This document shows positions 8,670-45,038 of a DNA stretch of 64,000 bases, piece by piece (the first letter of the stretch is position 1; each line of letters begins with the position of its first letter). Both the position numbers and the translations under genes were made by a program. The notes beneath the pieces are model-generated. The model had not been told where the DNA came from. It worked only from the letters and a program-made list of their open reading frames with translations, and ran no database searches. The DNA lies in assembly GCA_024614665.1 (NCBI GenBank), contig GCA_024614665.1_4861.1; one strand, 5' to 3'. Source of the stretch: a phage.

Positions 8670-9263
8670 TTACGCATCGGCCTCAAAGAACGGCTGGTTT
8701 GGTACCACTGCGTATTCGAGCACGAACAGATGTTCTGGGGCATCTTCTGCTCGCCACAGTTTGTGACACGTTGCCAGTTTTTCCAGGATGGTCAGCCAGC
8801 TGAGTTGGCAAAACGCACGATCGCCGAAGAACAGTTTCTGCAGTGCAATTGACACATCCATATACGCCTGTTTGAAGTCGAGCCCTTTATCGTAACCTGC
8901 CGACTGTCGCCAGGTCAGCACGAAACCTGCTTCGGTTTCGTTAATTGCTGGACGTAAACCACAAATCCACATCAGTGCCAGATTAACGTTCCAGTCGAAT
9001 TCGATACCTTCGTCTTCGTCATCACCAAACGCCGCGTTTAACGCGTCGTAGAAACCGTGGTTCTCTGCGAACCATTCGCCGTACTCAACGTAGACCGGTG
9101 CTTCGACAGCCTCCCCATCGACTTCACCGATAGGGCGCTCTACATAGTTCGGGTTGGTTTGAACGTGTTCCGCACCCGCGCGAATCAGTTCGTAGACATC
9201 TTTGGCGGTGATTTGTGCGGCTGTTTTAAGACCTGGATACCAGGGGCGTGTTACGAGTGTCAA
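8670..9263 (-). CDS. hypothetical protein (197 aa)
   Basis: ORF track; TTG start with AGGAG RBS, overlapping the stop of the upstream gene. Confidence 0.5.
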   Translation of the reverse strand: MTLVTRPWYPGLKTAAQITAKDVYELIRAGAEHVQTNPNYVERPIGEVDGEAVEAPVYVEYGEWFAENHGFYDALNAAFGDDEDEGIEFDWNVNLALMWICGLRPAINETEAGFVLTWRQSAGYDKGLDFKQAYMDVSIALQKLFFGDRAFCQLSWLTILEKLATCHKLWRAEDAPEHLFVLEYAVVPNQPFFEADA

Positions 9264-9982
9264 AGCAGTGCTCCTTTCATGATGGTGTTATTTGCCAGTA
9301 ATGTACCGGCCGCAGGTGATATTTTGGTGTACAGCGTATCCCAGATTTTCTGAAGTTCAGCGACGCGTTGGTCGTGGTCTTCCTTCGCAAAAGCAAGCTG
9401 ACGTGTTTCAGCTTTCGGTGGCGTCATTTTCGCACCGTAGAATGCTGCGTCTTTTCGGTAACTGGCCATCCAGCGTTTCCCGACCGGTGATTTCTTTTTA
9501 ATCATCGCAACAGCAGCACTCTCACCGAAGCGGTAGCCTAATGCGATTTCGGCTGTGCTCGGCTTGCGTTTGAGTTGTTTCGTCAGATGATCCTCGATGT
9601 GTTTCATGTAAACAGCAGCAAGCTGTACAGCATATTTCGGTTTATTAAGGTCTGCGTTCTTTGGGATGTTAAGTTGTTTCCCATACAGACGTATCATGGA
9701 GCGTTTAGTGCCTGTCGTCATTTGGACAACACTACTAGCACTGCTCGATTTATTCTTACCCACGTTTTTATTAAAACGGGATTCACGGTAAATAGTGGTC
9801 GCAAGCATCCCGGCGTGTACACCTTGCTTTTGAGATGCGGAGACGATGAGAGGTTTAATCTCATTGAACTGGTCCTGGATAAGGACAAATTCTTTTTGAT
9901 GTTTGTTACTGGTGGACTGGTAAGAAGCGTTGCTGTTGAATGTGGTCACTGCTACCAGAAGAAATAAAATGGTGCGAAACAT
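9260..9982 (-). CDS. secreted lytic transglycosylase (SLT-domain) protein
   Basis: signal peptide MFRTILFLLVAVTTFNSNASYQ; SLT-like YRESRFN...SSSASSVVQM...AVYM; ATG at 9982 with GGAGA RBS (ORF track extends to 10021). Confidence 0.6.
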   Translation of the reverse strand: MFRTILFLLVAVTTFNSNASYQSTSNKHQKEFVLIQDQFNEIKPLIVSASQKQGVHAGMLATTIYRESRFNKNVGKNKSSSASSVVQMTTGTKRSMIRLYGKQLNIPKNADLNKPKYAVQLAAVYMKHIEDHLTKQLKRKPSTAEIALGYRFGESAAVAMIKKKSPVGKRWMASYRKDAAFYGAKMTPPKAETRQLAFAKEDHDQRVAELQKIWDTLYTKISPAAGTLLANNTIMKGALL

Positions 9983-10080
9983 GGATGTTCTCCAAATGGA
10001 TTTATACTTTTCCGTTCCCAATCCGGGAAGACGGCGCGGACGGCATTGTGCTCCTTTGTAATGTGCCCTGATAATAATAT

Positions 10081-10581
10081 CTATTTGAAACTTTTTGGGA
10101 TGATTTTCTCTGCTTCCCTCAGCAGGGTGTCTGGTAAATAGAATCGATAAGTCTGCTCCGTGTGCTGTAGTCGTTTCTGTAAGTGTATAAAGATTTCCAA
10201 TCGCTCATGGTAACGTAACCAACCGTTAGCCATCCCTAGGGGCGGTATCGCAATCCCTCCTTCTAAGTCTTCCCCTAGTCGCGCCAGCGCATCAATGCCG
10301 GACGTGACATAGTAAATCTGCGATTTATAGCGAAAATGGGTTTTAGTAGGAAGGAGTATTACCCCTTCCTCAGGATAACAATAGACCTCACCGATAACGA
10401 TTTGCTCTTTACGACATTTCTGGCGATAGTCGTTATAAAGCGATGGGAAGCGTTCTCGGCACGCCAAGGCAATGCCCCTTCCCATCGCACCAACACAGTT
10501 AACTGTAACGACCTTGAAGCGCTCAGGCGCGTTAAACAGGTCGTGGGAGATAATAGCCTCGTCGATCAGTTCGAGTGACAT
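10081..10581 (-). CDS. macro domain protein, DarG-like (ADP-ribose processing)
   Basis: VVTVNCVGAMGRGIALACRERFP and IAIPPLGMANGWL match macro-domain phosphate-binding and catalytic loops as I recall them from DarG-type antitoxins. Confidence 0.7.
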   Translation of the reverse strand: MSLELIDEAIISHDLFNAPERFKVVTVNCVGAMGRGIALACRERFPSLYNDYRQKCRKEQIVIGEVYCYPEEGVILLPTKTHFRYKSQIYYVTSGIDALARLGEDLEGGIAIPPLGMANGWLRYHERLEIFIHLQKRLQHTEQTYRFYLPDTLLREAEKIIPKSFK

Positions 10582-10780
10582 CTATTGCCATACCCCATTG
10601 TGAAATAACCGGAGACTGAAGCAGCGATTCCAGCTCAGTAAGAACTCTGGCTTTTGCTTCTTCGCGCAACTTACGGACTTCCGGATCAGGTTTGCCTGCG
10701 CCCAAATATTGGGGTTCTGTCTGCGGGGTAGGGAAACCACAGAAAGAACTAACCATTATTCCGATGATTGTTTTTTGCAT
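10532..10780 (-). CDS. small hypothetical protein (82 aa)
   Basis: ATG immediately after TAA of upstream gene with AAGGAA RBS; 3' end overlaps macro-domain gene by 50 nt. Confidence 0.4.
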   Translation of the reverse strand: MQKTIIGIMVSSFCGFPTPQTEPQYLGAGKPDPEVRKLREEAKARVLTELESLLQSPVISQWGMAIDVTRTDRRGYYLPRPV

Positions 10781-11203
10781 TTAGCTATTCCTTTTCGCCC
10801 AGGCATGTACCGCTGACTCGAAACCTTCGTGTTCGATACCGAGCCGTTTCATTGCCAACATAGTGTTGAGGCTATTCGTAATTTCTTCACGGTAGCGATG
10901 GTCATCCATCTTACGCCAACACTTCTCCGGGTCAACGCCTAAACGCTGGAGTAGATACGCCTCACGCACCATACCAGGCCGCCAGAATTTAGGGCGGGTA
11001 ATCGCGATTTCAATCATGGGCGTCATGTCCAACGTGTGGGCGAGAATACTAACCGGCGTTTCCCCAACTTTATCACGTAGCGCTAAACGTAACCACCACT
11101 GAACATTTGCTTTGGTTTCAGGTAACAGGTCGTAGAATAAGGCTGTTTCTTCTTCTGATAAATGATCGTATAGTGATTTTGTTTCGCGAATAGCGGTAAC
11201 CAT
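10781..11203 (-). CDS. hypothetical protein (140 aa)
   Basis: ORF track; AAGGAG RBS. Confidence 0.55.
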   Translation of the reverse strand: MVTAIRETKSLYDHLSEEETALFYDLLPETKANVQWWLRLALRDKVGETPVSILAHTLDMTPMIEIAITRPKFWRPGMVREAYLLQRLGVDPEKCWRKMDDHRYREEITNSLNTMLAMKRLGIEHEGFESAVHAWAKRNS

Positions 11204-11214
11204 TTTAATGCTCC

Positions 11215-11478
11215 TTAGGGTAAAGTTGCCTCCCAGTCGTAACGGTGAGGCTCAGGCAGCGTACCAAGCGCTGCTTTAATACACGTACTCAGCGGAGTAT
11301 CATCGAACGCAACACGCCCGATAGTACCCACGTTGATGTGTTTTGGATTTACGGGTAAGAACTCCTTCACCCGCTCGTACTCAGCCCAACAGATATCGGT
11401 GTTTAAAGCTGAAAACCCAGGACGGTGAAACATAAATAGCACTCCTCGCGTAAAAATACCCCACTCATAGTGAGGCAT
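11215..11478 (-). CDS. hypothetical protein (87 aa)
   Basis: ORF track; ATG start. Confidence 0.45.
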   Translation of the reverse strand: MPHYEWGIFTRGVLFMFHRPGFSALNTDICWAEYERVKEFLPVNPKHINVGTIGRVAFDDTPLSTCIKAALGTLPEPHRYDWEATLP

Positions 11479-11503
11479 AATCGTAAGGAGTGCTAAAACA
11501 GGA

Positions 11504-11992
11504 CTATGCTACCGCAGTCCTTAAAGGTTCATCTGCTTCCGCAGGAACCTGCTTCGTAAATTCAAGCCATTGTCCGTCTGTAGAGACGGTCTTGCCAAAG
11601 CCGCGAGCGGTAAAGAACGCAATACCAGCTTCCTGGCAAGCGTATATTCCCCCATGCGCACTGGTGAACCGTTCATTCACATCAAGCGCATCAAAAATCT
11701 GCGTCATCGTTTTGCGACGGCGTGCCATTTCGGACACGAACATCGTACGAATCTTCAGAACCCCGGCGATTACGCGATAGAGACAGTAACCAATAGGGGT
11801 GCCCCCTTCCAGAGCAACGCAAGCACGGTTCCCCGCCAACAGTTTCTCCAGAGTGAGGTTCGGAATCTCACCTTTTTCGATATGGAGTATGGTACGTTGG
11901 TGGTTCAGAAATTTATAATGCAGCCCCAACAGCTGTTTATTTTGTGCTTCCGTTAAATCTGAGGATGAGGTAAGAATGACAATTTCGGCCAT
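11504..11992 (-). CDS. hypothetical protein (about 162 aa), weak acetyltransferase-like resemblance
   Basis: ORF track 11504..12025 begins with TTG; ATG (MAEIVIL...) at 11992. Confidence 0.5.
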   Translation of the reverse strand: MAEIVILTSSSDLTEAQNKQLLGLHYKFLNHQRTILHIEKGEIPNLTLEKLLAGNRACVALEGGTPIGYCLYRVIAGVLKIRTMFVSEMARRRKTMTQIFDALDVNERFTSAHGGIYACQEAGIAFFTARGFGKTVSTDGQWLEFTKQVPAEADEPLRTAVA

Positions 11993-12645
11993 GAGCTGAA
12001 TTCCTAAGTGAGCTTTCACCTGCAATGAAAGCGTGTGACGAAGAATTGCGTTTGTGTTTTCTTAAGTTTACCGGTAAAGCTTAGCGGTGTATACCGCCAC
12101 AGATGAAGACCAGTTCTCTATCGGAACTATGTCTTTAATCAGCAACGACGTTTTCAACGTCGTGATGCTGAGGTAACCTTCCGTCGCCACATTCGCTCAT
12201 GGCGCTTCTGATTACCACGCCAGTCTTCCCCGACTGTACGTGAAACTGCAAAATCATCCGGCCCGCAGACTTCCGCGATGTCTGCTAAAAGGTTCTTTGA
12301 AGACCCTATAGCCATCCCCACGCTAGAAAGAACGATACGCCGGGTTGGCTCGGCCGCCCCTAAACCCACGACCACGGGATCAGAGACTGTTTCACTGCTA
12401 CATGTTGTTTCTCCCACTTCGTAATTACCCTCCTGTTAAAACCAACCTTGCGTCAATGCAAGGATTGCGCCTAGGGCGTATGCGCCTGCTCCTAGTATCA
12501 GGCTACAGACGATACACCCAATCCATTTCACTAAAATAGCCACGTTACTACAAACGCTCCGATTGCGCAAACGATAAACGTGATACCAACATCTGTCCAG
12601 GTGGCACCGTCATACGCACCCGTTGCAATCATCGCCGCGTTGACA

Positions 12646-41363: not shown

Positions 41364-42251
41364 ATGAAAAACGATTTGCATCTTGCGTATAAAACCACAT
41401 TCAACCACCCGCTGCATCTATCTTCCCCAGATTCGGTGCGTGCACACCTCGCTGACAAAGTCAGACTGATTGCACAGATTCCTGGTGAGTGGCCAAAGGT
41501 TCGTGGTCGCTTCTTGACCGACAAGAAGAACTACACCGTAGAAAATACGTTTAAGATCCGTGATATGGTTGCAGAGGCCATCGTTATCTTTAACGGCGAT
41601 GGTAACTCTCGCGGCGTGTTGGTTGACGGTAAGTATTTCTTCAGTGAAGGGATTCTGAACAACAGTGTCGATTTAGAACTGATGTTTACACCGTTTGACG
41701 AACTCGAAGCAAAACCGATGGCGCGCCGTTGGTGGAGTCCGGACTATCTGGGCTCGTTCCCTTACTACTTTGTACTGGTACCTGCCGATACGGAAACGTA
41801 TTTCGACACCGAACCGTACATCGATATCGAGGGATATAAAGAACTCGGCATCACCCGTTTAGCGGACATGATGGCGTATAGCTATAAGTTCGTGTGGGAT
41901 AAAAAGCGTTCTGTCTGGTATGCGCTGACTGACGATTTTGAAATCACCAAACGTATTCGTAAGCCGTGGATGCAACACCTGGTTCAAACCCGATATGGGG
42001 ATTACCCGGCGACAGAAGCGGATTTGAGTAAGCTGGTAAGCTTCCTCTTAACGAAGGTGGATTTAACGAAAGAAGAAGCAGAAGCTGTTTCTGAGATTCG
42101 TAGTCGTTCGGTTACGTTGGCCGATTTGAAACGCTTGAACGAAAGACATGCCGACCTGAACAAAATTTTAGCTGCCTATCACGACCCGATGTTACTGGTG
42201 CCTGGCGCTAATGTAGACGAAGATCCTTTATTCGCCATTGATTATATTTAA
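41364..42251 (+). CDS. hypothetical protein (295 aa) within the radical-SAM cluster
   Basis: ORF track; co-directional, tightly packed between precursors and radical-SAM genes. Confidence 0.6.
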   Translation: MKNDLHLAYKTTFNHPLHLSSPDSVRAHLADKVRLIAQIPGEWPKVRGRFLTDKKNYTVENTFKIRDMVAEAIVIFNGDGNSRGVLVDGKYFFSEGILNNSVDLELMFTPFDELEAKPMARRWWSPDYLGSFPYYFVLVPADTETYFDTEPYIDIEGYKELGITRLADMMAYSYKFVWDKKRSVWYALTDDFEITKRIRKPWMQHLVQTRYGDYPATEADLSKLVSFLLTKVDLTKEEAEAVSEIRSRSVTLADLKRLNERHADLNKILAAYHDPMLLVPGANVDEDPLFAIDYI

Positions 42252-42273
42252 AAATATACTGGAGCAACCTGCA

Positions 42274-43188
42274 ATGACAGATCAAGTAGAATCCAGGATC
42301 TCGTCTGAACTGTACGACAAACCGTCAATTCTGTCGGTTGTCGCAACTTCTAAGTGTAACTTAGACTGTAGCTTCTGTGGAGGGGCTTATTACATGGATA
42401 GAGAAGATACTTCTCGTGAGTTTCAACGTGAAGAGATTCTCTCGATTTTAGAGAAGAATCCGGATATCGGTGAAATTCATTGGACGGGCGGTGAGCCGCT
42501 GTTAGCGCAGCGCAAGATTGAAGACTTCGTGAACGAGTTGAAGGAGTCTCATCCGAACCTCCGTCATCACATGTACACCAACGGTTTAAAGATGCGTAAA
42601 TCACATCTGCCGTTGCTGAAACAGTTCGACCTTATCTTTGTGTCCATTGACGGCTACAAGAAGTCGGAACGTCCGTTTATGAACTTTGTAAACGGTGGTA
42701 ATCACGAAGCGCTGGAAGTGCTGTACGAGCTGGACAACTATTACACCTGGGGTGTGATGACGCGTGACCAGTTAGGTGATAAACGCTGGTACGAAGATTT
42801 CATCGAGCTGCACCGAGCAATCTATCATTACCGTCCAGGTGGTATGTCGTTGCTGTTTGATGCGATGATGCCGAAACCGTTATCGCCAGACCACGTCATG
42901 AACTTCATGTACGGGTATTGGAAAATACTCGACAATATCGAACGCCTTAACATGCAGAACGATTCTGAGTGTGGGCTTGCGATCAGTAAAATGTTCGATA
43001 CTGAGTGCAACACGTGCAGTGAAGTGCTGTGGCTTAACGCCGACGGTACGCAGGAGCAAATTCAGAACGCCCCAGAGATATTGGAAGTCGGCTGTAATCG
43101 CCTGGCGCGTTCTATCGGCGTTGATGCGTATAACTACATCAACCGTGTAATTTCTGCTAAGCGTAAACGGGCGGCGAACAATGAGTAA
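42274..43188 (+). CDS. radical SAM enzyme (about 304 aa)
   Basis: CNLDCSFC (CxxxCxxC) near N-terminus; GGEPLL; C-terminal Cys cluster (ECGLA...ECNTCSE...GCN); ATG with CTGGAG RBS (ORF track starts 42238). Confidence 0.75.
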   Translation: MTDQVESRISSELYDKPSILSVVATSKCNLDCSFCGGAYYMDREDTSREFQREEILSILEKNPDIGEIHWTGGEPLLAQRKIEDFVNELKESHPNLRHHMYTNGLKMRKSHLPLLKQFDLIFVSIDGYKKSERPFMNFVNGGNHEALEVLYELDNYYTWGVMTRDQLGDKRWYEDFIELHRAIYHYRPGGMSLLFDAMMPKPLSPDHVMNFMYGYWKILDNIERLNMQNDSECGLAISKMFDTECNTCSEVLWLNADGTQEQIQNAPEILEVGCNRLARSIGVDAYNYINRVISAKRKRAANNE

Positions 43189-44509
43189 CAGCGAACAGCA
43201 AATCCAGTACACACCACGCACGTATCAGGTTGTGACTAACCTGTCATGTAATCTGGACTGCGAATACTGCTACGAGCGTAAATATCCTCGTAACAACAAA
43301 GTAGCAGACGTGATTGATTTTATCCACGCTTGTTTCGAGCGTGATAAAGATATCCCGAACGTTGAGGTCATCATCGATATCATCGGTGGTGAGCCGTTCA
43401 TGCAGCCTAAACTTCTTTTGGCGGCCTTTGAAACCGCAGAGAAGTTATGCGCAGAACACAATCGCCCGTATATGTTCAGTATCTCCACGAACGGTACACT
43501 TCTGGACCGTCCGCTGAACAAAGAAATTATCGAGCGCTGGAAAGACAAACTGTCTATTGGGGTCTCCATCGATGGTTTACCTGAAGTCCATGACAAATAT
43601 CGTATCTTTACCACGACGCGTGAAGGGTCGTACGAAGCTGCGGTACGCGGTTACAATTATCTGAAGAGTGTTGGCATCGCTGAATTAGGCGTAAAGGCGA
43701 CGTTTACGATCGATACATTGCCGCACTATGCCGCCAGCATGAAATCGTTAATTGACATGTCCGGCGGTGGTACCATTTCTGGTAACGTAACGTACGAAGA
43801 TATCCTGCCGCGCCATATGGCGTTGGATATCGCGAACCAGATGATGGACGTGATGGACTACTGGATTGAGAAGGGTCTGCACACCAACCCGCGTAACACG
43901 ATTACACACATCATCCCGGATGGCCTGAACTTTATGGCAACTTGGGACCCGGATTGGCGTGACAAACTCTTACATGACGACTCTGTTCGTCTCGACCCAG
44001 AACGCCTGAAACCGTACTGCGGTACGTTGACGCACATGACCTGTCTCGGCTTTGATCGCAAGATTTACGGTTGTAACCGTTTCATGTCCACGGTAACTTC
44101 CCGTTCTGCTGTAGCAGAACTGGTCGGTCGTGAGTTTGTGAGCCTGGACGGTGGTAAGTTGTTAGAAGAGATTCAAACACAGTACACCAACTACCCAGAA
44201 ACCTGTTTAGGGTGTCCGATGAAACACAGTTGCGGTAGCTGCGCAGCAGCATCGTACGAAAACGGTGAAGGTACACTGGAAGACCGTAAAGCGTATCACG
44301 CCGAGCGTCGTCAGTGTGGTTGGACTACTGCGAAGCTGATGGCGGCGGAATATTGGTATCAGAAAACTGGTACGACCCGCGCATCAGATTTGCATGATAA
44401 ATCCATGTGCTATTGTTCACGTTGTGTACGCCAACGTGCTGAAGCAGAAAAATTACAAAACGGAGCCCAGAATGAAGTCAATACTGATTCACAATTTTAC
44501 GAAGCGTAA
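43181..44509 (+). CDS. radical SAM enzyme with SPASM-like C-terminal domain (442 aa)
   Basis: CNLDCEYC (CxxxCxxC); IGGEPF; C-terminal CLGCPMKHSCGSC resembling the SPASM auxiliary-cluster motif; start overlaps stop of preceding radical-SAM gene by 8 nt. Confidence 0.8.
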   Translation: MSNSEQQIQYTPRTYQVVTNLSCNLDCEYCYERKYPRNNKVADVIDFIHACFERDKDIPNVEVIIDIIGGEPFMQPKLLLAAFETAEKLCAEHNRPYMFSISTNGTLLDRPLNKEIIERWKDKLSIGVSIDGLPEVHDKYRIFTTTREGSYEAAVRGYNYLKSVGIAELGVKATFTIDTLPHYAASMKSLIDMSGGGTISGNVTYEDILPRHMALDIANQMMDVMDYWIEKGLHTNPRNTITHIIPDGLNFMATWDPDWRDKLLHDDSVRLDPERLKPYCGTLTHMTCLGFDRKIYGCNRFMSTVTSRSAVAELVGREFVSLDGGKLLEEIQTQYTNYPETCLGCPMKHSCGSCAAASYENGEGTLEDRKAYHAERRQCGWTTAKLMAAEYWYQKTGTTRASDLHDKSMCYCSRCVRQRAEAEKLQNGAQNEVNTDSQFYEA

Positions 44510-45038
44510 ACTGCACTTGGTCGATCGCTTCCTGCGCAAAAGCAAGCTGTACAATGTGCACGCAATTGTGGCAGGGGAAGACTTCACTGATGAAATCCAA
44601 AGCCTGTTGATTAAATACGGGCTGAATGTGATGATCCCGGTCTACTGCGTTGAGAAAGGACACGAGTCTGTCGCGGAAATCGAAAAGCGCAACCCCGGCT
44701 TTGAGAAGCGACTGCTTGCATACCCACGCCACAAAATCGAACTGCTACGTCACTCTATTGATGAAGCCAGTCCTGAAAGTTTAGTGGCTTTGGGCTTGTC
44801 TTTCCCGCGGATGCGTATTCGTAACTTACGCTCCAATAACCCGGTTGACGCTTATTACACAGAGCGTCAAATCTTCGAAGAACACCTGCTCCCGCAGTTG
44901 GAAGAAGAAGAGCAACACAACATTTCTCTGTTGTGGGCCGGTAACCTCGATCAGGACTTCCAGATGCTGGACTTCGGTTTGTTGTTAGAACTTGGCCTGA
45001 TTGAGGAGGACGAATGTCTGTTACTGACAAAAGCTTAA
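44472..45038 (+). CDS. hypothetical protein (about 188 aa)
   Basis: ORF track 44394..45038; ATG (MKSILIH...) with ACGGAG RBS; overlaps 3' end of SPASM gene. Confidence 0.5.
   Translation: MKSILIHNFTKRKLHLVDRFLRKSKLYNVHAIVAGEDFTDEIQSLLIKYGLNVMIPVYCVEKGHESVAEIEKRNPGFEKRLLAYPRHKIELLRHSIDEASPESLVALGLSFPRMRIRNLRSNNPVDAYYTERQIFEEHLLPQLEEEEQHNISLLWAGNLDQDFQMLDFGLLLELGLIEEDECLLLTKA

What the first reader, a model, noticed from the sequence alone, without database searches (positions are those of the whole stretch)
10081..10581. Stand-alone DarG-like macro domain: candidate counter-defence against ADP-ribosylating host systems
The 166-aa protein carries VNCVGAMGRGIALACRERFP and IAIPPLGMANGWL, which match macro-domain loops as I recall them from DarG antitoxins that remove ADP-ribose from DNA. 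There is no adjacent DarT-like toxin. DarT-type systems defend against phage by ADP-ribosylating DNA, so a phage-borne DarG-like macro domain is a plausible anti-defence enzyme.
Basis: partly seen in the sequence, partly recalled or inferred. Interest (0 to 1): 0.7.

Follow-up and report, generated by a model that had tools for sequence, protein, structure and literature searches.

The report
Jumbo-phage orphan DarG-like macrodomain (AdfM)

Summary
Window 10081..10581 (minus strand) is a 166-aa ORF carrying both quoted motifs. The window is an SPN3US-like jumbo phage (Seoulvirus) and the gene equals SPN3US gp070.

The protein is a macrodomain of the DarG type, not just any macrodomain:
- DarG profiles: PADLOC 4e-32, NCBIfam 1e-30.
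- Family profile against solved structures: DarG macrodomains 3e-56 and 1e-52, TARG1 1e-11, all other macro clades 1e-7 or weaker.
- AlphaFold model (pLDDT 93.6): its four best solved-structure matches are all DarG.
- Catalytic residues N28 and K80 and the ADP-ribose-binding loops are conserved.

It is not a DarG antitoxin. It lacks DarG's C-terminal DarT-binding half, and no DarT is detectable anywhere in the window.

It is 69% identical over its full length, and syntenic, with Erwinia phage Asesino gp217. It is 36% identical to PhiKZ gp104. Both are named AdfM in Morgan et al., Cell Rep 2026. PhiKZ AdfM was shown to remove DarT2's ADP-ribose from DNA and to protect against DarTG2, and both proteins localise to the phage nucleus.

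This particular protein is untested. Interest is low.

The parts
10081..10581 (-). adfM-like gene: 166-aa single-domain DarG-type macrodomain (equals SPN3US gp070, YP_009153490.1). Coordinates include the TAG stop at 10081-10083.
   Evidence: ORF listing and sequence. SPN3US annotation. DarG-type homology. AlphaFold model with pLDDT 93.6 whose top Foldseek hits are DarG macrodomains.
10444..10503 (-). Loop 1 and helix motif VNCVGAMGRGIALACRERFP (residues 27-46). It holds N28 (codon 10498-10500), which equals TaqDarG N22 and PhiKZ AdfM N23, and R35, which equals TaqDarG K29.
   Evidence: Alignments. T26, N28, G31, M33, G34, G36 and A38 are invariant in 54 homologues. N22A, K29E (TaqDarG) and N23A (PhiKZ) reduce activity in the tested enzymes (PMC5179494; PMC13309987).
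10333..10347 (-). Catalytic strand PTKTHF. T79 is codon 10345-10347. K80 is codon 10342-10344 and equals the catalytic Lys80 of TaqDarG and Lys84 of TARG1. F83 is codon 10333-10335 and sits at the position of TaqDarG W83, the residue proposed to stack on thymine.
   Evidence: T79 and K80 are invariant in 54 homologues. Alignment to DarG and AdfM. The role of K80 comes from PMC5179494.
10216..10254 (-). Diphosphate-binding loop 2, IAIPPLGMANGWL (residues 110-122). G116, N119 and G120 equal TaqDarG G117, N120 and G121. A118 replaces G119, as in PhiKZ AdfM. W121 replaces G122 and is specific to this clade.
   Evidence: Alignments. The ADP-ribose contacts of TaqDarG come from PMC5179494.

Best explanation
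The gene encodes an AdfM-type orphan antitoxin: a stand-alone DarG2-like macrodomain of a nucleus-forming jumbo phage (SPN3US-like Seoulvirus).

Inferred mechanism. In hosts carrying a DarTG2 toxin-antitoxin defence, infection frees DarT2. DarT2 ADP-ribosylates thymidines in TNTC motifs of single-stranded phage DNA, which blocks replication and packaging. The phage enzyme binds the ADP-ribose through its two Gly-rich loops (residues 28-38 and 113-120). It cleaves the thymidine-ribose bond using Lys80, with Asn28 positioning the substrate, and so restores unmodified DNA. It acts purely as an enzyme, because it lacks the DarT-binding C-terminal domain of DarG. By analogy with its orthologs it is probably imported into the phage nucleus, where the phage DNA sits.

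Shown here: the ORF, DarG-clade homology, the predicted fold, conserved catalytic residues, the absence of DarT and of the DarG C-domain, and orthology and synteny with a named AdfM.

Shown elsewhere for homologues: the DNA de-ADP-ribosylation activity, protection against DarTG2, and nuclear localisation.

Inferred for this protein: all biochemical and biological activity.
For: Sequence homology:
- PDB search: the best matches are the DarG macrodomains of M. tuberculosis and T. aquaticus (1.9e-20, 8e-19). The next unrelated clade scores 0.05.
- A profile of 54 homologues scores DarG at 3e-56 and 1e-52, the Thermosipho DarTG fusion at 1e-35, TARG1 at 1e-11, alphavirus and other macros at 1e-7 or weaker, and Poa1p at 3e-5.
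- PADLOC DarG 4e-32. The NCBIfam DarG equivalog is the only NCBIfam hit, at 1e-30.

Structure: the AlphaFold2 model has pLDDT 93.6 and pTM 0.90. Foldseek ranks 5M3E, 5M31, 5M3I and 7OMU first (TM 0.73-0.76 normalised to the query, 0.80-0.83 normalised to the three stand-alone DarG macrodomain targets), then TARG1.

Active site: N28, K80, T26, T79, G116 and G120 are invariant across 54 homologues. They align with TaqDarG T20, N22, T79, K80, G117 and G121.

Relation to named AdfM proteins:
- 36% identity, E 2e-25, to PhiKZ gp104 AdfM.
- 69.3% identity over 100% of the length to Asesino gp217, YP_009290835.1.
- Conserved gene order: GNAT, small ORFs, macro, SLT transglycosylase.

Published experiments on AdfM: PMC13309987.

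SPN3US has a chimallin homologue and is counted among nucleus-forming phages (PMC9365700; PMC13282480).
Against: Nothing was tested for this protein itself.

It is only about 34-36% identical to the one biochemically tested phage enzyme. That is about as far as it is from bacterial DarG macrodomains. In a small NJ tree the chimallivirus proteins fall in one group, but that group also takes in a metagenomic protein (P0064), and the clade of the chimallivirus proteins sampled (three of them metagenomic relatives assumed to be phage) had only 17.5% bootstrap support.

Some ADP-ribose contacts differ from TaqDarG. Q34 becomes A40. G119 becomes A118, as in PhiKZ. G122 becomes W121, a clade-specific change in the loop that closes on the ligand. 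W83 becomes F83.

The generic Pfam Macro score is just under its gathering threshold.

I could not confirm that the paper's Figure S1 lists SPN3US, because no supplement is held.

Whether natural Salmonella or E. coli hosts of this phage carry DarTG2 was not checked here.
Confidence: 0.8

Rival explanations
1. A TARG1-like protein mono-ADP-ribosylhydrolase. It would remove ADP-ribose from proteins, either phage or host proteins modified by host ADP-ribosyltransferase toxins, or substrates of the phage's own ADP-ribosyltransferases. It would not act on DNA.
For: TARG1 is the next-closest solved family (profile E 1e-11; Foldseek TM about 0.7). It shares the catalytic lysine mechanism with DarG (PMC5179494). 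More than 40% of jumbo phages encode ARTs (PMC9503650).
Against: DarG scores 40-45 orders of magnitude better than TARG1. Identity to TARG1 is about 16-18%. In my alignment, which uses a TARG1 sequence recalled from memory, two things differ. TARG1's second catalytic residue Asp125 aligns with N119 here. The DarG-specific Asn (N28) is present, whereas TARG1 has Ser there. An aromatic residue is kept at the proposed thymine-stacking position (F83). The tested phage homologue acts on DNA. I did not search the phage for an ART.
Confidence: 0.07
2. A small-molecule ADP-ribose-derivative enzyme, as many database records say ('phosphatase', 'Appr-1-p processing protein'). That would mean ADP-ribose-1''-phosphate phosphatase, O-acetyl-ADP-ribose deacetylase, or a degrader of ADP-ribose-derived immune signals.
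For: PHROG 335 is labelled 'phosphatase' (E 7e-30). Erwinia and Salmonella phage records call the orthologs 'Appr-1-p processing protein' or 'phosphatase'. There is a weak match to Poa1p.
Against: The Poa1p match covers only residues 5-59 and is weak: E 0.05 for the single sequence and 3e-5 for the profile, against 1e-56 for DarG. The labels are inherited generic macro-domain annotations, not tests. The catalytic Lys in the PTK motif is the DarG/TARG1 hallmark. As I recall (not tested here), MacroD/Poa1p-type enzymes do not use this lysine.
Confidence: 0.05
3. An eraser of ADP-ribose on RNA, or on a different DNA adduct made by a defence ART other than DarT2. It would then counter a different, possibly unknown, defence system.
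For: There are clade-specific changes in the ligand-closing loop (NGW instead of NGG) and at Q34 (A40). A C-terminal helix (residues 151-160) is absent from DarG and from PhiKZ AdfM. The Seoulvirus/Erskinevirus clade is well separated in the tree (bootstrap 0.9).
Against: No positive evidence. The catalytic core is DarG-like. The authors of PMC13309987 group the Asesino ortholog with the DarT2-countering AdfM proteins, and DarG2-type macrodomains are described there as acting exclusively on DNA.
Confidence: 0.06

Closest known systems
AdfM (anti-DarT factor macro) of chimalliviruses: PhiKZ gp104, PhiPA3 gp108, Goslar gp83, Asesino gp217 (Morgan et al., Cell Rep 2026, PMC13309987)
   Same: A stand-alone DarG2-like macrodomain of about 160 aa in a nucleus-forming jumbo phage. 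It is 69% identical, full-length and syntenic with Asesino gp217, and 36% identical to PhiKZ gp104. It has the same catalytic Asn and Lys, and the same Gly-to-Ala change in loop 2 as PhiKZ.
   Different: Untested itself. The Seoulvirus/Erskinevirus clade has NGW instead of NGG in loop 2, Phe instead of Trp at position 83, and an extra C-terminal helix. The hosts are Salmonella and E. coli rather than Pseudomonas.
DarG2 antitoxin macrodomain (T. aquaticus, M. tuberculosis; PDB 5M31, 5M3E, 5M3I; NCBIfam NF048014)
   Same: The closest solved structures and the closest cellular family. It shares the fold, the ADP-ribose-binding loops, and catalytic K80 and N22.
   Different: Only the macro half is present. 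The match covers profile positions 7-150 of 338 and scores 107 bits against a cut-off of 250. There is no C-terminal DarT-binding domain and no darT partner. It is phage-encoded.
AdfN (orphan DarG1-like NADAR proteins of T4-like phages; Johannesman et al. 2025, PMC11825919)
   Same: The same strategy: a phage carries an orphan antitoxin-like hydrolase that removes DarT-installed ADP-ribose from its DNA.
   Different: An unrelated fold (NADAR rather than macro). AdfN is specific for guanosine adducts of DarT1 and does not counter DarTG2.
TARG1/OARD1 (human terminal ADP-ribose glycohydrolase; PDB 4J5R, 4J5S)
   Same: The same macro subclass and the same catalytic lysine.
   Different: Only 16-18% identity. 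TARG1 acts on protein substrates. Its Asp125 is not conserved here, and the DarG-type Asn28 is present instead (TARG1 sequence recalled from memory).
AdfA (RB69/T4) and AdfB (ICP1 gp145)
   Same: Phage factors that counter DarTG.
   Different: AdfB is thought to neutralise DarT by direct interaction rather than by hydrolysing the DNA adduct. Neither AdfA nor AdfB was compared with this protein here.

Membership tests
AdfM (chimallivirus orphan DarG2-like macrodomain) | Significant homology or orthology to named members (PhiKZ gp104, Asesino gp217) | tested here: met
   36% identity, E 2e-25, to PhiKZ gp104. 69.3% identity over 100% of the length to Asesino gp217, YP_009290835.1, with conserved gene order.
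AdfM (chimallivirus orphan DarG2-like macrodomain) | Single-domain macro protein encoded by a nucleus-forming (chimallin-encoding) jumbo phage, without a DarT partner | tested here: met
   166 aa, with one macro domain covering nearly the whole protein. The window is 97-99% identical to SPN3US-like Seoulvirus genomes. SPN3US has chimallin gp244 and is listed as nucleus-forming. No DarT in the window.
AdfM (chimallivirus orphan DarG2-like macrodomain) | Conserved active-site Asn (PhiKZ N23) and Lys (DarG K80) | tested here: met
   N28 and K80 are invariant in 54 homologues and align with the tested residues.
AdfM (chimallivirus orphan DarG2-like macrodomain) | Removes DarT2-installed ADP-ribose from thymidine in ssDNA and protects the phage from DarTG2 | not testable with these tools
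   Shown for PhiKZ, and the protection phenotype also for PhiPA3, in PMC13309987. Inferred here.
AdfM (chimallivirus orphan DarG2-like macrodomain) | Imported into the phage nucleus (PicA-dependent) | not testable with these tools
   Shown for the PhiKZ, PhiPA3 and Asesino proteins. Import signals are surface patches that cannot be recognised from sequence.
DarG2 antitoxin (type II TA, NCBIfam NF048014) | DarG-type macrodomain | tested here: met
DarG2 antitoxin (type II TA, NCBIfam NF048014) | C-terminal DarT-binding domain; full-length score above the equivalog cut-off | tested here: not met
   The match covers profile positions 7-150 of 338 and scores 107.3 bits against a cut-off of 250. The protein ends about 15 residues after the macro fold.
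DarG2 antitoxin (type II TA, NCBIfam NF048014) | Encoded next to a darT toxin gene | tested here: not met
   Neighbours have no PADLOC hits and no DarT-type Pfam hits. tblastn of DarT2 against the whole window gives a best E of 2.1.
TARG1/OARD1 | Catalytic Lys plus Asp (K84 and D125), and closest profile match | tested here: not met
   The Lys is conserved, but the Asp position is N119 (TARG1 sequence from memory). Profile E is 1e-11 against 1e-56 for DarG.
Poa1p/MacroD-type ADP-ribose-1''-phosphate phosphatase (the 'phosphatase' or 'Appr-1-p processing' annotation) | Full-length similarity to the Poa1p/MacroD clade | tested here: not met
   Only residues 5-59 match Poa1p, at E 0.05 (single sequence) or 3e-5 (profile). 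Foldseek ranks Poa1p 25th.

The most novel reading that the evidence does not exclude
The Seoulvirus/Erskinevirus AdfM clade might have a substrate range different from PhiKZ AdfM and DarG2. Candidates are another DarT-like or ART adduct on DNA, or ADP-ribosylated RNA. It would then counter a defence other than classical DarTG2. The clade's distinguishing features are Trp in the ligand-closing loop (NGW instead of NGG), Phe83, Ala40, and an extra C-terminal helix. That helix could alternatively be the clade's own nuclear-import determinant.
Probability: 0.08. Interest if true: 0.5.

Novelty: already known. Interest (0 to 1): 0.15.

Why it matters
It confirms that SPN3US-like phages of Salmonella and E. 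coli, which are candidates for phage therapy and biocontrol, carry the AdfM counter-defence. Their host range on DarTG2-bearing strains should therefore depend on this gene.

It also flags that many database records mislabel the gene as 'phosphatase', 'Appr-1-p processing protein', 'protein-ADP-ribosylation protein' or 'hypothetical protein'. 'Anti-DarT factor AdfM (DNA ADP-ribosylglycohydrolase)' is the better-supported name.

It adds no new principle beyond the 2025 (AdfN) and 2026 (AdfM) papers.

Tried and rejected
- DarT partner. I searched the four genes on each side with PADLOC and Pfam and the whole window with tblastn of P. aeruginosa 505 DarT2. Nothing was found. The best tblastn hit (E 2.1) crosses a stop codon upstream of the macro ATG and is noise.
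- Paper supplement. I tried to confirm that Figure S1 of the AdfM paper lists SPN3US. No supplementary text is held.
- Bacterial and metagenomic homologues. I looked at the genomic context of three distant homologues (P0060, P0071, P0064). No DarT-type Pfam family was recorded on any neighbouring gene (most carry no Pfam hit), so these contexts say nothing either way. P0060, P0062 and P0074 do carry extra C-terminal sequence that aligns among themselves and may be the C-terminal half of two-domain DarG proteins; this was not tested.
- Promoters and terminators. The sigma-70 and terminator scan of 9000-12600 gave only weak consensus matches, 6 against 3.6 expected. It is not meaningful for a phage that uses its own RNA polymerases.
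- Monophyly. An NJ tree could not establish that all chimallivirus AdfM proteins are monophyletic against bacterial DarG (17.5% bootstrap). The local Seoulvirus/Erskinevirus clade is solid at 0.9.
- Generic Pfam Macro. Rejected as the basis for classification, because it is borderline. The DarG-specific models are decisive.

Full report
Observation. The ORF listing shows one ORF at window 10081..10581 on the minus strand. It starts with ATG, encodes 166 aa, and translates as MSLELIDEAIISHDLFNAPERFKVVTVNCVGAMGRGIALACRERFP...GGIAIPPLGMANGWLRYHE.... The coordinates are right and include the stop codon. The strand is minus.

Where the window comes from. A 3-kb stretch around the gene is 97-99% identical to about 30 SPN3US-like jumbo phages of Salmonella, E. 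coli and Proteus (genus Seoulvirus, about 240 kb). The protein is 100% identical to that of Escherichia phage vB_EcoM_Lh1B and 98.8% identical to SPN3US gp070. RefSeq labels gp070 'macro domain-containing protein'. Other records call it 'phosphatase', 'protein-ADP-ribosylation protein' or 'hypothetical protein'. SPN3US encodes a diverged chimallin (gp244) and is listed among phages that build a nucleus-like compartment (PMC9365700; PMC13282480).

Which kind of macrodomain. The generic Pfam Macro model is only borderline: E 2e-4, 21.7 bits against a cut-off of 22. The clade-specific evidence is strong and consistent.
- A single-sequence search of all solved structures puts the DarG macrodomains of M. 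tuberculosis (5M3I, 1.9e-20) and T. aquaticus (5M31/5M3E, 8e-19) first. The Thermosipho DarTG fusion follows (7OMU, 1.5e-10). Nothing else is better than 0.05. The identity of those entries is confirmed in PMC5179494.
- A profile built from 54 homologues widens the gap. DarG scores 3e-56 and 1e-52, the DarTG fusion 1e-35, TARG1 1e-11, alphavirus nsP3 and other macros 1e-7 or weaker, and Poa1p 3e-5.
- The PADLOC DarG model hits at 4e-32.
- The NCBIfam DarG equivalog is the only NCBIfam hit, at 1e-30.
- An AlphaFold2 model (pLDDT 93.6, pTM 0.90) has as its four best Foldseek matches in the PDB the three DarG macrodomain entries and the DarTG fusion (TM 0.73-0.76 normalised to the query; 0.80-0.83 normalised to the three stand-alone DarG macrodomain targets). 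TARG1 comes next.

Active site. PMC5179494 reports that TaqDarG binds ADP-ribose through N8, L9, T20, N22, V31, Q34, T79, G117, G119, N120 and G121. It also reports that K80A inactivates the enzyme and that N22A, K29E and G119E strongly impair it. In the alignments these positions map as follows:
- T20 to T26, N22 to N28, K29 to R35, V31 to I37, Q34 to A40.
- T79 to T79, K80 to K80, W83 to F83.
- G117 to G116, G119 to A118, N120 to N119, G121 to G120.
T26, N28, G31, M33, G34, G36, A38, T79, K80, G116 and G120 are invariant in all 54 homologues. The G119-to-Ala change is shared with PhiKZ gp104, which is active. The clade-specific differences are W121 (NGW instead of NGG), A40, F83 and an extra C-terminal helix at residues 151-160.

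Not a DarG antitoxin. The protein matches only positions 7-150 of the 338-position DarG equivalog and scores 107 bits against a cut-off of 250. It therefore lacks the C-terminal DarT-binding half. The four genes on each side have no PADLOC hit, and no Pfam hit beyond SLT transglycosylase, a borderline GNAT and a weak DUF4231. A tblastn of a P. aeruginosa DarT2, translated from the sequence printed in PMC13309987, finds nothing in the 64-kb window; the best E is 2.1.

Comparison with the literature. Morgan et al. (Cell Rep 2026, PMC13309987) describe AdfM, 'anti-DarT factor macro', a DarG2-like macrodomain found in about half of chimalliviruses. Their findings:
- PhiKZ gp104 removes DarT2-installed ADP-ribose from a TNTC oligonucleotide, and N23A reduces this activity.
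- It fully rescues DarT2 toxicity in E. coli.
- PhiKZ AdfM deletion mutants lose 3-6 logs of titre on DarTG2-expressing hosts; AdfM-mutant PhiPA3 also shows reduced titre on those hosts.
- Phage DNA becomes ADP-ribosylated in its absence.
- The PhiKZ, PhiPA3 and Erwinia phage Asesino proteins localise to the phage nucleus.
The paper names Asesino gp217 (YP_009290835.1) as an AdfM. The window protein is 69.3% identical to exactly that protein over its whole length. The gene order GNAT acetyltransferase, small ORFs, macro, SLT transglycosylase is the same in both phages. It is 36% identical (E 2e-25) to PhiKZ gp104. In a small NJ tree the window protein and Asesino gp217 form a well-supported clade with metagenomic relatives (bootstrap 0.9). 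All phage and bacterial DarG-like sequences are far from TARG1. Monophyly of all chimallivirus AdfMs is not resolved. The general principle of phage-borne orphan antitoxin-like hydrolases was established for the NADAR enzyme AdfN against DarTG1 in 2025 (PMC11825919). The abundance of macro domains in jumbo phages (56%) was noted in 2022 (PMC9503650).

Mechanism, best supported (confidence about 0.8). The protein is an enzymatic orphan antitoxin. DarT2 from a host DarTG2 system ADP-ribosylates thymidines of single-stranded phage DNA. The macrodomain binds the ADP-ribose and cleaves the base-ribose bond using Lys80, with Asn28 positioning the substrate, which restores replication and packaging. 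It cannot sequester DarT, because it lacks DarG's second domain. By analogy with its 69%-identical ortholog, it probably works inside the phage nucleus. The steps shown here are homology, fold, residues, architecture, context and orthology. The activity, the phenotype and the localisation are inferred from published work on homologues.

Rivals.
- A TARG1-like protein hydrolase, about 0.07.
- A small-molecule 'Appr-1-p phosphatase' as the databases say, about 0.05. The PHROG 335 'phosphatase' label and the GenBank labels are inherited generic names.
- An eraser of some other nucleic-acid adduct, about 0.06.
All three are disfavoured by the DarG-specific profile and structure ranking and by the conserved DarG-type active site.

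Verdict. The finding is a correct re-discovery of a family published in 2026, and its ortholog is named there. For this particular phage the function is still untested, but a specialist would not be surprised. Novelty: already known. Interest: about 0.15.

Noticed in passing
window 10532..10780 (-); Asesino locus L002:2811-3047: An 82-aa ORF immediately upstream overlaps the start of the macro gene by 50 nt. It is annotated in SPN3US as gp071. It is also conserved in Erwinia phage Asesino (43% identity, E 4e-13), where it is not annotated and overlaps gp217 by 47 nt. So it is probably a real gene whose overlap is conserved. Its N-terminus (MQKTIIGIMVSSFCG) looks like a lipoprotein signal, and it sits near an SLT transglycosylase. 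It has no Pfam or PADLOC hit.
   Followed up: partly
window about 11200-11500, compared with SPN3US locus L001:8222-8991: Between the macro gene and the GNAT acetyltransferase, the window lacks about 512 bp that SPN3US, SEGD1, JN03, Proteus phage 7 and EC001 have (SPN3US gp073, 519 nt). The SPFM, SPLA and SaP7 genomes match the window collinearly. This is a presence/absence polymorphism of a small gene within the genus.
   Followed up: partly
Salmonella phage SPFM1, SPFM6, SPFM8, SPFM12, SPFM14, SPFM15 and SPFM20 records (homologues P0037, P0038, P0042, P0043, P0047, P0050, P0052): In several SPFM genomes the macro gene is called as truncated proteins of 111-152 aa, and the DNA matches in up to 40 pieces. 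This most likely reflects frameshift-rich assemblies rather than real pseudogenes.
   Followed up: no
phage collection: Kuravirus SU10 gp033 (L005:274-714), FS2B, EC.W14-3, Vibrio phage VAP7, Streptomyces phages: Stand-alone DarG-like macrodomains with the same N, PTK and GxxNGG motifs also occur in non-jumbo phages that are not expected to form a nucleus. Examples are the 77-kb Kuravirus podophages, usually annotated 'Appr-1-p processing enzyme'. In all, 253 phage records match. The AdfM strategy may extend beyond the chimalliviruses studied so far.
   Followed up: partly
window 9260..10021 (-) and 11504..12025 (-): The macro gene is flanked by an SLT-domain lytic transglycosylase (Pfam SLT, 2e-6; many records annotate it as 'putative endolysin') and by a borderline GNAT acetyltransferase (20.6 bits against a cut-off of 20.7). 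The same neighbours are found in Asesino.
   Followed up: no
SPN3US 140024-142139 (L003:19025-21140); roughly window 42000-45000 by extrapolation, not verified: The region syntenic to the window in SPN3US carries two adjacent radical-SAM-domain genes (gp102, gp103). It also has a long series of paralogous 'virion structural protein' genes and an SMC-domain protein (gp080). I did not examine these.
   Followed up: no
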